Position numbers: made by a program. A stretch of 18,580 nt of DNA from a virus (Duplodnaviria > Heunggongvirae > Uroviricota > Caudoviricetes), in IMG/VR virus record IMGVR_UViG_2537562015_000012, one strand, 5' to 3'. This document shows positions 6,001 through 12,000 of the stretch, piece after piece. The first letter of the stretch is position 1; each line of letters begins with the position of its first letter.

Positions 6001-9000
6001 GCATAACGTCATTATGTGGAGATGGCTGATCGCAACAGTATTCATGCTGGAAATGAGAGAGGAAAACGGCACCGTCAGCATTATTGATGACAGTGGCAAT
6101 CATTCCGTGGTTTCTGTTTATTCCAATGGCATCGTCGCCATGCCGCTGTATCCAGTAGCAGAGCGCCTCGCTATGGCAAACAACATTGAGGGCGCAATGA
6201 TCGAGAAATATGGTGTTGATGTCGGAACAAAGAATGCCATCATTTTTTACAGCAACATGTTCGATGTCGAACAGGGAACACTCACTTCGTTTGGGCGAGA
6301 AGTGCTTGCCGATCTTCACAACAGCTTTATTGCCGAACTAAACGAAAACGGCATCCCAGAAGCACCAGTGACGCACTAAACGGGGGCCAGAATGCGAAAC
6401 ATTGATCTTATCCGTCAGGTTATCAGTGCGTCTGAAAACAACTGGCCTCATGTGCTGGACTGCCTGAACATAAATGTCCCTGACTCTCCGCGCCGTCATG
6501 CTCCCTGCCCTGCATGTGGGGGCAAAGATCGATTCCGGTTCGATGACAACGGGCGCGGTAGCTTCATCTGTAATCAGTGCGGCGCTGGTGATGGGCTGGA
6601 TTTAATTAAACGCGTAAATAACTGCGACACAACAGAGGCGGCGCTTCTTGCCGCTGATGTTCTGGGTATTGATTACCGGACAACGGAAACACCAGAAGCC
6701 ACCAGCCAGAAACGGGAACAACTGGAAACCGAGCGCCAGCGACGCGAACAGGAGCGCCTGAAAAGGGCAGAGAAGGACGAACAACAAAGACGGGATACGT
6801 TTTCCCGTCAGTTTGATGACATGCGCAGAAAGGCTGTAAACGGCAAATCTGATTATCTGGTTGCGAAAGGGGTAGGTGATTTTACATTCCCTGTGTTGCC
6901 CGATGGATCTCTGTTGCTGGCGCTGGTGGATAAATCCGGCGCAGTCACAGCAGCACAGACTATTACCTCACATGGTGAAAAAAGACTCCTGACAGGTTCA
7001 GCAAAGCGAGGGGCATATCACGCCATAAACGCACAGAAACGACCTCACAGCATCATAATTGCTGAGGGGGTGGCTACCGCCCTGTCGTGCCATTTAATTC
7101 GCCCTGACGCAATGACAGTGGCAGCAATCGACGCTGGCAACCTGTTGCCAGTAGCGGAAGTCATGCGCAGAACATATCCACAGGCACAAATCATCATTGC
7201 CGCAGATAACGATCACCAGCAAGGAAACTCCGAAAGTGGAGGGATCAACACGGGGAAAGATGCCGCAGAGAGGGCCGCTATTTCCGTAGCTGGCTGGGTG
7301 TCTCTGCCACCGACTGACTATAAAGCCGACTGGAACGACTATCACCAACAACACGGGCTGGCGGCAGCCACAGCAGCATTTAAAGATTCGATGTACCAGC
7401 CACGGGGGAAAGGGGCGCAGGTGAAAAATCACAAACAGTCAGTCGGGGCGCTGAATGAGATCAGTTCTGGCGAGGTGTTAAGCGATGATGAAATTGCTGT
7501 CCTCGAAGAAATCAACCGGACGTTTACGCATGTCACCATCGGCGGGAAACACAAGGTGGTGTCGCTAAAGCCTTCTCAAACCGGCGGTGTATCGCACGTT
7601 TTCGAGGATTTATCACAATTTCAGCATTATTTTCATCATAAACCGAGAGTCGCCAGAAAGCTGGCGGGATCGGCGTGGCTGTCATGGAGTGGGAAGAACT
7701 ACAAGCCAGGAGGCGTAGGATTTTATCCAGTACCAGACAAATGCCCTGACGATGTTTTTAATCTGTATGAGGGGCTGGCACTGGAACCAATTGAAGGAGA
7801 TTGCACGGTATACCTTAATCACCTGTTGCAGGTTGTCTGTGCCGGTAATGAAGAGGCATACCAATATCTTATCCAGTGGATGGCGCACATTATCCAAAAG
7901 CCTGATGAAAAACCGTCCGTGGCAATCGTGATGAAATCTGTCCCGGGCACAGGGAAAGGCACAACGGTTAAACCGCTGCTGCAAATACTGGGGCAGTACG
8001 CCGCCCACATTAACGGGGCGGGACATATTTCAGGGCGCTTCAATTCAATACTTGCTAACAAGCTACTGGTATTTGCTGACGAAGTGACGATCCACAAGCC
8101 GTCTGAAGCTGACAGACTTAAAGCGATTATTAGCGAACCGACGTTTAACCTTGAGCGCAAGGGAATTGATGCTGAACCAATGCCGAATTTTGCCCGGTTG
8201 ATATTTGCCAGTAACAGCACACAGGTATTACAGGCAGGGATAAGAGAGCGCCGCTATCTCGTGCTTGAGCCATCTCCTGAAAAAGCACAGAGCCGGGAGT
8301 ATTTTGATCGGCTGTACAGTTGGCTTAATGATGGCGGTGCCGCAAAGTTGCTTTGGCATCTTAAAGGGGTGGATCTCTCAGGTTTTGACCCTCAACGAGC
8401 GCCACAGACCGATGCCTTACGTGAAGAAATCTTGCTGGGGCTGTCTGGCGTTGAATTGTTTCTTTATGGCGAGCTAATCAATGAACCTCCGTTTAATGGC
8501 GAAGTCCGTTTGTTTGCAAAGGATATGGTTAGTCGATTTGTAGCGTGGTCGCTTGAGCGTGGGGAAAAGCTTAAAGAACCAGCTGCCAGATCACTACTGG
8601 GTAAATCACTTGCACAAATGGGGCTGGTGAAGCATGGAAGACCAGACCGAGGGAATGGCGTGTTCTACGAACTACCAGAGGTCGGAGTTCTACAGGCTGC
8701 GTTTGCCCGTCTGATCGGTATGGGGGGTTATGATGTTTTTTAATATAGTCTTTTTACAAGAAGATCGTTTTTACCTGTACCACCTATACCACTTTGCTAA
8801 TTCAGCATTAAAAACAATGCGTTATAGTGGTACAGGTCAATATCTTACCTATACCAGACCTGTACCACCTATACCATTAACAAACGCATTTCTTCTGGCT
8901 GGCTGAGAGGGAACAACCAATGATGAGCACACCATTTTACAAAGTGCGCCAGTTAGCTTCTTCCTCTGGCTGGCAGCTACGGTTTGAGGGGCGTTCAGAC

Positions 9001-12000
9001 TGGCTACCCATTGCGGCATGGGCGAATGTTGAAATGTGTATTGACGGCGATACCGTTGAAATCATTATTCCCTGCGTGGCAAGTCGGGACGGCTGTATAG
9101 AGCCAACAGATATGGCAGCAGAAATCAGAGAGGTAAAACATGAACAATAACTATTGCATACTGCAGGGAATGACCAGAACGGAGCGCGAAGAATTAAAAA
9201 GTTTCGCTACACAGTGCGGGAATGCTGGCGACATCCAAAGTCTGGAACGCACTTTAATTATGATTGCGCACTGGATGCGCCAGGGGCAAAGAGTTTCATT
9301 TACTGAATATGCCAGCCAGTGGACAGAGGCACAGCGCGAACGGAGCGACGGTAATCACTCAACACCCGAAATGGCGAAGCAATGGCCTTTCAGTGGTAAA
9401 CGCTGTATCAGTCCCGGTGGTTCAGATTATTACCCTGCTGGTGTGGGAGATGAGCCATGTTGTGACGAGACTGAAATCCGCCACGCAGTGACAGTAATTA
9501 CCGCTGAATACCCACAATTTAACCTTGACGGACTGGCGCTCCACAACCGGAATGCGGACTGGGAAAACCCGCTTGATAACCCGTCATTTATCGTATCGGC
9601 GAAAAGCTGCCTGAGATGGATCAGAGACAACGGGATGAGTAATGCCCAGATTGAGAGCTTCCCGCAGGATAACCCCACATCTGACACGTTGAAGCATGAA
9701 GTGGAGCGATATAACCAGATAAACCACCAGCACAGTGATCACCCGCACTATATCCCCAACGGAGCATTTATTGCGGCGATGGTGGCAAGCGGCTACAAGG
9801 TTAAGCCAGCGGGAAGAATGAACGCATTTTTCAATATTTCAAAAAAGGGATTATGTGCTGCTATGGGTAAAAATTAAATAAATGGTACAGGTCTGTACAG
9901 GTGGGGAGAGGTCATTTTTACCCACCTGTACCACCTGCAGGCCGCGCCACACAAGGGTTTGTGACATGGTGGTACAGGTGGTACAGCAAAAACAGCGATT
10001 TTCTTTATAAGGTATGTTTTGCTCATCTGGCAGACGGAGGTATTCGCTGCGGTTTGGCACATAGCCCAGAACAGCAAAGAGTTTTACGAGACTTTTGTAA
10101 AATCCAGTGTACAAGGGCGTGACGTTTTTGAAGGTGAGCACTACGAAATTTTCGTAGTTCAAAAAATAGCCTCTGAGATGTTGTTATGCCTGTTCAGCAA
10201 ACCATCCGCATAGCTGATCGCGAATCAAATTACCAATGGAGCCAGAAGCAAGGGCAGAACTGGAAAGCGCCTGCCGTGAAGAGTAATGCGACTCCATAAA
10301 TATAGTTTTTAGAGTCCATAAAAAAACTGTCAAAACCTGACATACAGAACGATGCCACCAGCTACTGAACGGTGGCATTTTTTTGTGCTATTTGTTTCAT
10401 ATTTTGCAATCACAATGATGAATGTTGCGTTTTATGAAACTATAATGACTGTTGTTTTATACAGTTCTAAGGGGGGCGTTATGGCTATTTCAGTAAAGCC
10501 AGTATTGATAAGTGAGAAGCAAATGGAAGCGATAAAGAAAATTCAGGAGGAGCAGCGTAAAAAATCAGAGGTAGGAGTTGCGCCAACGATCCACGAAATT
10601 GCTCGGGGATTAATGGATAAGGCGCTGGCTTACACTTTAACTGGACGTGGGTAAATTTATGGCTACGTGGCAACAGGGTATTAATTCTGGTGGTTTTCTG
10701 GCTGGCATCGGTGCGCAAAATGAGAATGCGCCAAAGGCAAGCGACATTAACGCAACGCTTGGTCTGATCCGCGAAAACAATGAACTGGCTCGCTCAGGTG
10801 CAAATAACGTTGCTCTGACAGGTCTTCGTGGTCTGGCTGGAGTTGCTGACATTTATAAGCAGCAGCAACAGCAGGAACGTAAAGCGGCATTCCAGAAAGG
10901 TTATGCAGATGCTTATGCGTCCGGTGACAGGGAGCAGATGCGTAATCTTATTACAGCATTCCCAGAAGAGTTTGAGGAAGTCCGTAAAGGGATGAGTTAT
11001 GTCGATGATGCTCAAAGGGATGATTATGGCAATCTGGCGCTCAAAGCACAGGTAGCCTCATCGCTTGGTCAGGGCGCATTTGGCAGGTTCATGATGGATA
11101 ATGAGCAGGAGATGCGTCGTTTAGGTATCCCTCCAGAAACTATTGCTGAAATGCAGGTTAATGACCCGCAGGGCTTCCAGCATTTCGCAGGTAATCTGGC
11201 GCTGTTTTCTCTCGGTCATGAGAAGTATTTCGATATCAAAGATCAAATGGAAGGTCGTCGACTTGAGCAAGGGCGACTGGATGAAAGTATGCGTCAGGCT
11301 GACATGGAGAACGCGAGAGGATGGGCAAATATCCAGAACGCTCAACTAGACAGGGCTCAGCGAGCACAAATTCACTCAGATGAGATGGGATTGAAGCTAA
11401 TGGAGCTGGGGCAAAAAGGTAAGCCGTCAGCAGACTTAATTAAGGGATTAAATTCTGACATTACCAATTTTGGCAAAAATTATAACTCTGTCAGAGCGGC
11501 GGCAAACTCTCTGCAAGCCCTTAGCAAGGTAAATACTGGCGCTGCCCAACTTGGGATTATCTTCAACTACATGAAATCTCTTGACCCGCAGTCAGTCGTT
11601 CGTGAAGGCGAACAGGTTCAGGTAATGCGGTCTGATGGCATATGGGGACAAATCAAAGGATACATAGACCAGCTTAATGCTGGAAACGGCCTGTCGCAGG
11701 AGGCAAAGGATAACATTGTTAACGCCGCAAAAATCAACGCCAATGCTATGGGGCAGCAGTTTAACCAGCAGGTTGACGAGTATCTCGATACATATGGAGA
11801 AACTATTCCTCAGGGGCTAAGAAAAAGCCTTGAAAGAAGGAAAGCGAAGCTATTTGACGATGTTTCCGGGCAGCCTACATCACAGGCTGGCACTGGACAG
11901 GCAAAAGCGGCAACCGGAGGAATATCAGAAGGCGCAACGGCAACCAACCCTAAAACTGGTCAGAAAATCATTTACAGGAACGGAAAATGGCAGCAAATGT

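What the first reader, a model, noticed from the sequence alone, without database searches (positions are those of the whole stretch)
8920..9877. Two unknown genes sandwiched between the iteron clusters
Seen: a 76-aa and a 245-aa gene overlap by 11 nt, both with reasonable Shine-Dalgarno sequences. The 245-aa protein has a Cys-containing segment CISPGGSDYYPAGVGDEPCCDE and a His-rich stretch NQINHQHSDHPHY. Their position between two iteron clusters is unusual. Inference: they may be replication-associated (origin-binding or partition-like) or a cargo insertion within the replication module.
Basis: partly seen in the sequence, partly recalled or inferred. Interest (0 to 1): 0.45.

Follow-up and report, generated by a model that had tools for sequence, protein, structure and literature searches.

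The report
Two replication-module genes inside a satellite origin
Two real but unnamed genes sit between the two halves of the replication origin of an E. coli phage satellite (an EcCIMP1-like island), and the larger one belongs to a big uncharacterised protein family that phages and satellites usually encode next to their DNA-replication enzymes.

Summary
ORF76 (8920-9150) and ORF245 (9140-9877) overlap by 11 nt, have Shine-Dalgarno sites, evolve under purifying selection, and are flanked by two significant CTGTACCA iteron clusters (8775-8876 and 9883-9986).

The window is an EcCIMP1-like phage-inducible chromosomal island with a P4-alpha-like primase-helicase. The segment 7414-10077 is a swappable replicon cassette holding the primase C-half, cluster A, both genes and cluster B. 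Sister islands carry a DUF927 primase half and a compact, gene-free origin there instead.

ORF76 occurs only with alpha-type primases. In every locus where both clusters could be read, it lies between them. ORF245 fuses two domains that also exist alone. Its C-domain family has over 800 clusters at 50% identity and no Pfam model. In Proteobacteria, Firmicutes and one unclassified metagenome contig it is encoded beside primase-helicases, family-A DNA polymerases, PD-(D/E)XK nucleases and SSB.

ORF245 also follows three other replicase types with different iterons. Both proteins are acidic, and the Cys and His stretches are not conserved. This makes origin binding or partition unlikely.

The best reading is that both are replication-module accessory proteins acting through protein contacts. 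Their biochemical function is not shown.

The parts
6392..8743 (+). P4-alpha-like primase-helicase (783 aa) with Zn-ribbon, Toprim and DUF5906 domains. It is the presumed iteron-binding initiator.
   Evidence: Pfam and PHROG hits. The gene is mosaic: nt 6392-7413 are shared with the DUF927-type primases of EcCIMP1-type islands.
7414..10077 (+). Exchangeable replicon cassette: primase C-half, iteron cluster A, ORF76, ORF245 and iteron cluster B.
   Evidence: Homology to EcCIMP1 and L004 stops at 7413 and resumes at 10078. The Raoultella island L009 shares only 7055-10009, at 78% identity.
8775..8876 (.). Iteron cluster A: six CT(G/A)TACCA copies in the order + + - + + +, around a 36-nt spacer that is 69% AT. 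It is the likely melting origin.
   Evidence: The same architecture is seen in L006, L009 and L021.
8920..9150 (+). ORF76, a small acidic protein (pI 4.6) with a predicted all-beta fold. It is found only with alpha-type primases, and lies between clusters A and B wherever both were read.
9140..9454 (+). ORF245 N-domain (residues 1-105), a helical domain with motif ERExLK...AHWMRQ...F.EYA..W. It also occurs as a stand-alone protein of 90-115 aa.
   Evidence: An N-domain-only gene lies between the primase and SSB genes in Atlantibacter L022.
9455..9877 (+). ORF245 C-domain (residues 106-245), a winged-helix-like fold with invariant S-Y-x-x-K-H-x-x-E, Y-I-x-N-G and N. It belongs to a large unnamed family.
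9883..9986 (.). Iteron cluster B: four CTGTACCA copies in the order - + - -, with spacers that are 49% and 36% AT (the second clearly GC-rich). It is the likely auxiliary site, comparable to P4 crr. Its outer pair is an inverted repeat of the outer pair of cluster A.
   Evidence: (repeat I1).
10344..10386 (+). Terminator-like hairpin followed by a T-run. It is the probable end of the primase-ORF76-ORF245 transcription unit.
   Evidence: (repeat I17). No terminator is predicted between the primase stop and ORF76.

Best explanation
ORF76 and ORF245 are the last two genes of the primase-helicase (early/replication) operon of an EcCIMP1-like phage-inducible chromosomal island. They are translationally coupled. 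They lie inside a bipartite, P4-style origin.

Cluster A has an AT-rich spacer and is the probable melting site. Cluster B has less AT-rich spacers (one clearly GC-rich) and is a probable auxiliary, crr-like binding site for the C-terminal domain of the alpha-like primase-helicase. Both assignments are inferred from sequence only.

Shown:
- Both are real genes.
- They move with the helicase/origin-binding half of the primase and the iterons as one cassette.
- ORF76 is restricted to alpha-type replicons and, where both clusters could be read, lies between them.
- ORF245 is a fusion of two independently occurring domains.
- Its C-domain family is encoded beside primase-helicases, family-A DNA polymerases, PD-(D/E)XK nucleases and SSB in distant phages and satellites.

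Inferred: both proteins are replication accessory factors that act through protein-protein contacts, not by binding the iterons. ORF245 would be a generic adaptor that works with any replicase type, for instance linking the element's helicase or polymerase to SSB or the host replisome. ORF76 would be a modulator specific to the alpha-type bipartite origin.
For: - Gene reality: ORFs, Shine-Dalgarno sites and overlap; dN/dS 0.07-0.28.
- Operon: same strand, no predicted terminator or strong promoter between the primase and ORF76, and a terminator-like hairpin at 10344-10386.
- Cassette behaviour: breakpoints at 7413/10078 against EcCIMP1 and L004, and Raoultella shares only 7055-10009. 119-129 of 5426 complete E. 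coli genomes hold the whole module. About 340-390 others carry the DUF927 alternative, seen as partial matches to the shared primase N-terminus and to 10078-10400. In the two such islands examined, L004 has none of these iterons, and both L004 and EcCIMP1 have no genes between the primase and the conserved non-coding region.
- P4-like iteron architecture: paired 8-9-mers 9-11 nt apart, with an inverted partner 43-44 nt away, as in P4 crr and ori.
- ORF76 restriction: present in window, L006, L009, L024, L002 and L021, all with alpha-type primases; absent from L005, L007, L019 and L022.
- ORF245 or its separate domains lie directly after a primase or helicase gene in 12 of 20 independent non-IMG/VR contexts (my own tally of the loci read, not a tool output). 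These cover the window's alpha-like DUF5906 primase and the true P4-alpha C-terminus type, DUF927, a RepA-family helicase, a different Xenorhabdus primase, a DUF5906 helicase in an unclassified metagenome contig, and primases of Lacticaseibacillus and Streptococcus elements.
- SSB linkage: SSB follows immediately in L006, L009, L010, L007 and L022, with 4-nt stop/start overlaps in L007 and L022.
- IMG/VR: in 39 clusters, upstream neighbours include 9 PDDEXK_1, 7 DNA_pol_A (six with 1- or 4-nt overlaps), and one each of AAA_25, DUF5906 and DUF3854. Downstream neighbours include 9 PDDEXK_1, one VapE/PriCT_2 and one SSB.
- Structure: the AF2 model has pLDDT 87.9, and the only fold matches are weak winged-helix hits.
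- Charge: acidic pI values.
Against: - Gene neighbourhood shows association, not mechanism.
- Some family members are not next to a replicase: between Gam and Mor in a Mu-like prophage, in Bacteroides loci, in an Acinetobacter phage, and after an integrase.
- EcCIMP1 itself replicates and transfers without these genes (PMC11773190). They are therefore not universally required for this island type.
- The roles assigned to clusters A and B rest on sequence only.
Confidence: 0.5

Rival explanations
1. The two genes are early-expressed host-takeover or anti-defence accessory genes. They ride in the replication operon for timing and have no role in replication itself.
For: - The ORF245 homologue in a Mu-like prophage sits between Gam and Mor, in the semi-essential early region.
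- C-domain genes also occur next to R-M systems in a conjugative-transposon-like region and next to an integrase.
- Neighbours such as SSB, Gam and nucleases are also typical of anti-defence-rich early or leading regions (my own knowledge).
- Both proteins are small, acidic and unannotated.
Against: - No PADLOC match and no match to any known anti-defence protein.
- The family is tightly coupled to polymerases and primases, often with overlapping start/stop codons, across phyla.
- ORF76 is restricted to one replicon architecture.
- The genes are swapped together with the helicase half and the iterons.
Confidence: 0.22
2. This is the first reader's idea: ORF245 and/or ORF76 bind the iterons or origin DNA, or act as a partition system.
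For: - The genes lie between two iteron clusters.
Against: - The pI values are 4.6 and 6.1.
- The conserved third helix (NGAFIAAMVA) is hydrophobic, which does not suggest a DNA-reading helix (my reading of the model's secondary structure).
- hhalign finds no similarity to alpha origin-binding domains.
- The same protein family follows replicases with unrelated iterons: GTGAGG in L005, GTATTCATA in L024, and none in the Mu-like prophage.
- There is no ParA or ParB signature.
- In Xenorhabdus the large gene lies outside the iteron pair.
Confidence: 0.07
3. The genes are helper-phage interference or packaging-redirection genes, the class that typically follows the origin in PICIs.
For: - PICIs place interference and packaging genes right after the origin (PMC6092414).
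- The EcCIMP1 authors expect packaging functions downstream of the primase (PMC11773190).
Against: - The genes are absent from EcCIMP1, although it is mobilised by Kapi1 (PMC11773190).
- The family occurs in islands with very different downstream modules and in bona fide phages, next to DNA polymerase.
- It also occurs in a Mu-like prophage.
- There is no similarity to TerS, Rpp or capsid-remodelling families in Pfam or PHROGs.
Confidence: 0.1
4. The genes are a neutral cargo insertion that split a once-compact origin and now have no function in the element.
For: - The outer iteron pairs of A and B are inverted repeats of each other, like the two sets of a compact PICI origin (repeat I1; compare).
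- The large gene is inside the pair in Enterobacteriaceae but outside it in Xenorhabdus.
Against: - Both genes are under purifying selection.
- The pair is conserved across genera with 48-84% nucleotide identity.
- The start/stop overlap is retained.
- Both clusters keep multiple internal iterons.
Confidence: 0.05

Closest known systems
Bacteriophage P4 replicon (alpha primase-helicase with ori and crr)
   Same: - An alpha-like primase-helicase with Zn-ribbon, Toprim and SF3/D5-type helicase domains.
- Short iterons in both orientations, with spacings of 9-11 nt and 43-44 nt.
- Two separate iteron clusters, one of them directly downstream of the primase gene.
- A probable Cnr (DUF5375) counterpart upstream of the primase.
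   Different: - In P4, crr is two 120-bp repeats 60 bp apart with no gene between them, and ori lies about 4.5 kb away. Here the clusters are 1.1 kb apart and enclose two genes.
- P4 has no ORF76 or ORF245 homologue.
- No sid, delta or psu genes are annotated in this island.
- The iteron sequence differs: CTGTACCA here against TGTTCACC in P4.
EcCIMP1, an E. coli PICI mobilised by the P22-like phage Kapi1 (PMC11773190)
   Same: - 87-95% nucleotide identity over 2596-7413 and 93% over 10078-10629.
- The same gene order: HTH regulator, AntA, Ash/C4 RNA region, small ORFs, primase, then ejection-protein-like genes and PerC.
   Different: - A different integrase and attachment site: yicC-dinD here against tRNA-Thr.
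- A different primase C-half: DUF5906 here against DUF927.
- The sister island L004 has a compact gene-free origin of about 115 bp, and both L004 and EcCIMP1 lack ORF76 and ORF245.
Canonical PICI/SaPI origin: two iteron sets flanking an AT-rich region, immediately 3' of pri-rep (PMC6092414)
   Same: - The origin is located directly after the replicase gene.
- Cluster A alone has iteron sets around an AT-rich spacer.
- The outermost pairs of A and B are inverted relative to each other.
   Different: - The two clusters are separated by 1 kb of coding sequence in Enterobacteriaceae, or by a 73-codon gene in Xenorhabdus, not by a short AT-rich spacer.
PHROG families 9576 and 17839 (C-domain) and 4935 (N-domain), all of unknown function
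   Same: Stand-alone relatives of the two ORF245 domains match these phage families.
   Different: - None of the families has an assigned function.
- ORF245 itself reaches phrog_9576 only at E 7e-4.
- The fused two-domain form is confined to a few Enterobacterales satellites and one Mu-like prophage: 8 loci among 185,579 species genomes.

Membership tests
P4-type replicon | An alpha-type primase-helicase with Zn-ribbon, Toprim and a D5/DUF5906 SF3 helicase domain | tested here: met
   Pfam hits PF08273, PF13362 and PF19263 on 6392-8743. There is 34% identity to the N-terminal half of P4 alpha.
P4-type replicon | Two cis-acting iteron clusters (ori and crr) bound by alpha | tested here: inconclusive
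   Two significant clusters with P4-like spacing are present. Binding and a requirement in cis cannot be tested with these tools.
P4-type replicon | A P4-type origin-binding C-terminus of alpha, with TGTTCACC iterons | tested here: not met
   The C-terminal 125 aa differ from P4 and the iteron is CTGTACCA. A true P4-type C-terminus with GTGTTCATA iterons is seen in L024 instead.
P4-like satellite (int, psu, delta, sid, alpA, epsilon, alpha) | Presence of sid, delta and psu late genes | tested here: not met
   None is annotated in the identical PA45B island. The ten largest window proteins show no such families. The smaller ORFs were not all scanned.
PICI (EcCIMP1-like) | Integrase, AlpA/HTH regulator, primase, unidirectional transcription, size 15-20 kb, specific att site | tested here: met
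   Annotation of L001. There is 87-95% identity to EcCIMP1 outside the swapped modules.
PICI (EcCIMP1-like) | Helper-dependent excision, replication and transfer | not testable with these tools
   This has been shown for EcCIMP1 only (PMC11773190).
PICI origin | Two iteron sets flanking a short AT-rich region right after the replicase gene | tested here: inconclusive
   Cluster A fits this on its own, with a 36-nt spacer that is 69% AT. The whole A-to-B unit does not, because 1 kb of coding DNA lies between the clusters.
Iteron-binding initiators, ParB or partition proteins | A recognisable DNA-binding, Rep or Par domain on a basic protein | tested here: not met
   No Pfam or NCBIfam hit. The pI values are 4.6 and 6.1. 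hhalign against alpha origin-binding domains is negative.
Winged-helix fold | A three-helix plus beta-hairpin topology with a significant structural match | tested here: inconclusive
Known anti-phage defence systems (PADLOC) | A match to a PADLOC model | tested here: not met
   No hits for ORF76, ORF245 or the domain relatives, apart from one chance-level hit at E 0.012.

The most novel reading that the evidence does not exclude
The C-domain of ORF245 would define a widespread, still unnamed replisome accessory factor of mobile elements. It would partner with SF3 or primase-helicases, family-A polymerases, PD-(D/E)XK nucleases and SSB in phages and satellites of at least Proteobacteria and Firmicutes. 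ORF76 would be a regulator embedded in the origin itself, so that in alpha-type satellites the origin is a gene-bearing, loop-forming unit. Transcription or translation through it would couple early-operon expression to origin firing.
Probability: 0.25. Interest if true: 0.65.

Novelty: new variant of a known kind. Interest (0 to 1): 0.45.

Why it matters
Satellite replication modules are usually described as a primase-helicase plus a compact iteron origin. This case differs in three ways:
- The origin is bipartite and carries conserved genes inside it.
- The whole unit (helicase/origin-binding half, iterons and two accessory genes) is exchanged between islands as one cassette.
- One of the genes belongs to a large family with no Pfam or NCBIfam model, which recurs in the replication modules of unrelated phages and satellites.

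If the family proves to be a replisome adaptor, it would add a component to the minimal replication toolkit of mobile elements. It would also give a useful marker for locating origins. If it does not, the result remains a clear map of the replicon cassette in a common E. coli island; the module is present in about 2% of complete E. coli genomes.

Tried and rejected
- Pfam, PHROGs, NCBIfam and PADLOC scans of both proteins and of stand-alone domain relatives gave nothing with a known function.
- PDB sequence-profile searches with the full-length, C-domain and N-domain alignments gave nothing.
- I tested whether the C-domain is a free copy of the alpha origin-binding domain. It was rejected by hhalign, with probability about 0.1%.
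- I considered ORF76 as a Cnr analogue. This is unlikely, because a DUF5375-related protein already sits upstream of the primase and no P4 protein resembles ORF76.
- tblastn of ORF245 found nothing in phage records. In plasmids it found only IS-truncated Klebsiella remnants.
- Rfam and RNA folding of 8700-10700 and 10078-10395 gave no significant RNA.
- Literature searches for the RefSeq accessions found nothing.
- The search for related loci with the broad domain alignments failed for lack of conserved stretches. A narrower alignment worked.

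
Full report
**Observation.** The window carries ORF76 (8920-9150) and ORF245 (9140-9877) on the + strand, overlapping by 11 nt. Each has a good Shine-Dalgarno site: GAGAGGG 8 nt before the first ATG, and AGAGAGG 6 nt before the second. Copies of CTGTACCA flank them. Cluster A (8775-8876) has six copies in the order + + - + + +. Cluster B (9883-9986) has four copies in the order - + - -. The motif is strongly over-represented: 10 matches against 2.56 expected, with 0 of 200 shuffles reaching that number. Outside the two clusters there are only isolated single matches (614, 2743, 9403 and 9418).

Only C89, S95, Y97, G101, P202 and Y204 are conserved.

**What the element is.**
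- The same sequence sits between yicC and dinD in E. coli PA45B. The gene order there is integrase, HTH regulator, AntA, DUF4222, an Ash region, small ORFs, primase-helicase, the two hypothetical genes, P22-like ejection-protein genes and PerC (Pfam and PHROGs).
- Rfam finds isrK and a C4 antisense RNA inside the 'Ash' ORF.
- The window matches EcCIMP1 of E. coli MP1 at 87-95% identity over 2596-7413 and at 93% over 10078-10629. EcCIMP1 is a phage-inducible chromosomal island shown to be mobilised by the P22-like phage Kapi1 (PMC11773190).
- The window is therefore an EcCIMP1-like PICI with a different integrase and a different replicon.

**The replicon is a cassette.**
- Homology to EcCIMP1 and to the sister island L004 breaks at 7413/7414, inside the primase gene, and resumes at 10078.
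- In L004 the replaced segment encodes a DUF927-type primase C-half followed by a compact origin of about 115 bp. That origin has three GTTGGTTCA repeats, an AT-rich spacer and three inverted copies. It contains no genes and no CTGTACCA. EcCIMP1 likewise has no gene annotated between its DUF927 primase and the conserved non-coding region.
- A Raoultella island shares only 7055-10009 with the window, at 78% identity.
- Among 5426 complete E. coli genomes, 119-129 carry the whole module. About 340-390 others match only the shared primase N-terminus and the non-coding segment 10078-10400.
- No sampled or listed match retained the iterons without the genes.

**Comparison with P4.**
- In P4, crr lies directly after alpha. 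It consists of two 120-bp repeats, each holding octamer iterons in both orientations, and ori lies about 4.5 kb away.
- The window's clusters share that fine structure: pairs 9-11 nt apart, with an inverted partner 43-44 nt away.
- Cluster A has a 36-nt spacer that is 69% AT. The spacers of cluster B are 49% and 36% AT.
- I infer that A is the melting origin and B a crr-like auxiliary site, both bound by the C-terminal domain of the primase. This is not shown.
- The primase is alpha-like (Zn-ribbon, Toprim, DUF5906), but its C-terminus and iteron sequence differ from those of P4.
- A protein related to DUF5375 (Cnr) sits just upstream of the primase.

**The genes are real and conserved.**
- dN/dS is 0.07-0.28 for ORF76 and 0.09-0.16 for ORF245.
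- The pair is present after alpha-type primases in Raoultella, Buttiauxella, a metagenomic contig with a true P4-type alpha and GTATTCATA/GTGTTCATA iterons, and three Xenorhabdus loci.
- The start/stop overlap of 11 or 4 nt is kept in Enterobacteriaceae.
- In Xenorhabdus innexi and X. ehlersii, iteron sites lie on both sides of the small gene only, and the large gene lies downstream of cluster B. In X. ehlersii the proximal site is reduced to a single degenerate copy, and a full A-like cluster lies about 4.6 kb upstream.
- The constant feature is therefore the small gene between the iteron sites. The L024 contig ends before a distal cluster could be seen.
- ORF76 homologues were found only with alpha-type primases.
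- No terminator or strong promoter is predicted between the primase stop and ORF76. A terminator-like hairpin follows at 10344-10386. The two genes probably end the primase operon.

**What ORF245 is.**
- It has no Pfam, NCBIfam or PADLOC match.
- A word-indexed search found only 29 relatives, all in Enterobacterales. Only 8 loci exist among 185,579 species genomes.
- An exhaustive profile search found 837 cluster representatives and showed that ORF245 is a fusion. Residues 1-100 occur alone as proteins of 90-115 aa. Residues 110-244 occur alone as proteins of 120-140 aa.
- The C-domain alignment has invariant S-Y-x-x-K-H-x-x-E, Y-I-x-N-G and N.
- Profile-profile comparison with alpha origin-binding domains is negative.
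- The proteins are acidic or near neutral.

**Genomic context of the family.**
- Full-length homologues also follow a DUF927 primase (L007), a RepA-family helicase with GTGAGG iterons (L005) and a different Xenorhabdus primase (L019). None of these has an ORF76 homologue.
- SSB follows immediately in several islands, with 4-nt stop/start overlaps in L007 and in Atlantibacter L022. In L022 only the N-domain is present, between the primase and SSB genes.
- One homologue lies between Gam and Mor in a Mu-like Salmonella prophage.
- Stand-alone C-domain genes lie directly after a DUF5906 helicase in an unclassified metagenome contig (a Por_Secre_tail protein nearby hints at Bacteroidota). They also follow the DNA primase of the 14-kb Lacticaseibacillus element JB1P3 and the primase/helicase of Streptococcus phage Javan526. 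The last two score 46 and 60 bits against the C-domain profile.
- By my own tally of the loci read, 12 of 20 independent non-IMG/VR contexts place the gene directly after a primase or helicase gene.
- IMG/VR yielded 80 loci, which fall into 39 clusters at 80% identity. The upstream neighbours include 9 PD-(D/E)XK nucleases, 7 family-A DNA polymerases (six with 1- or 4-nt overlaps) and one each of AAA_25, DUF5906 and DUF3854. The downstream neighbours include 9 PD-(D/E)XK nucleases, one VapE/PriCT_2 and one SSB.
- Exceptions exist: Bacteroides loci, a conjugative-transposon-like region, an Acinetobacter phage, and one gene placed after an integrase.

**Interpretation.**
- The association with replication modules is strong and spans at least two phyla (Proteobacteria and Firmicutes).
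- Independence from replicase type and iteron sequence, together with the acidic charge, argues against iteron binding or partition.
- I therefore favour replication accessory proteins that act through protein contacts. ORF245 would be a generic adaptor, possibly linked to SSB or the replisome. ORF76 would be a modulator specific to the alpha-type bipartite origin. Confidence in this reading is about 0.5.
- The main rival is an early anti-defence or host-takeover role, at about 0.2. Helper interference, origin binding and neutral cargo are less likely.
- EcCIMP1 works without these genes, so they are not essential to the island type as a whole.

**Novelty.** The element type and the replicase are known. 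The new points are the gene-bearing split origin, the cassette-like exchange of helicase half, iterons and accessory genes, and the recognition of a large unnamed protein family linked to replication modules. I rate this a new variant of a known kind, with moderate interest.

Noticed in passing
window 4433-4510 and 4573-4660 (inside ORF 4052-5119): Rfam finds isrK and a C4 antisense RNA inside the 355-aa 'Ash family' ORF. This points to a P4/P1-type RNA immunity region. The long ORF call may be partly spurious, because RefSeq splits this region into an ash pseudogene plus an Icd-like gene in sister islands.
   Followed up: partly
window 10647-14083: The island carries ejection-protein genes like P22 gp20 and gp16 (Inj_translocase and DNA-transfer PHROGs). 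This matches the P22-like helper Kapi1 of EcCIMP1 and is unusual cargo for a satellite (PMC11773190).
   Followed up: partly
window 6392-7413 versus 7414-8743: The primase gene is mosaic. Its Zn-ribbon/Toprim half is shared at 87-95% identity with the DUF927-type primases of about 340 E. coli genomes. The helicase/origin-binding half is swapped at a breakpoint inside the gene.
   Followed up: yes
window 10078-10400: A non-coding segment is conserved at 95-98% identity in about 500 E. coli genomes, whichever replicon type they carry. It ends in a terminator-like hairpin at 10344-10386. It has no Rfam match and no unusual folding energy. It may be the leader or promoter region of the ejection-gene operon.
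   Followed up: partly
window 5672-6379: The 235-aa protein just upstream of the primase (phrog_1515) is probably the counterpart of P4 Cnr (DUF5375). The link runs through its Xenorhabdus homologue, and the direct match to P4 Cnr is weak at E 0.009.
   Followed up: partly
L017 6938-7747 (Salmonella enterica subsp. diarizonae): A full-length ORF245 homologue sits in a Mu-like transposable prophage, between Gam and a DUF2786/DUF7168 protein and upstream of Mor. No iteron-type replicon was recognised nearby.
   Followed up: partly
L033, L035, L041, L047, L056, L064 (IMG/VR contigs): A recurrent three-gene string in uncultured phages: a family-A DNA polymerase, a C-domain protein and a PD-(D/E)XK nuclease. 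The polymerase/C-domain junction overlaps by 1-10 nt, and the nuclease gene follows closely (29-nt overlap to 19-nt gap).
   Followed up: partly
window 14079-14846: This part of the island does not align with the otherwise 99%-identical PA45B island, which indicates a variable accessory segment.
   Followed up: no
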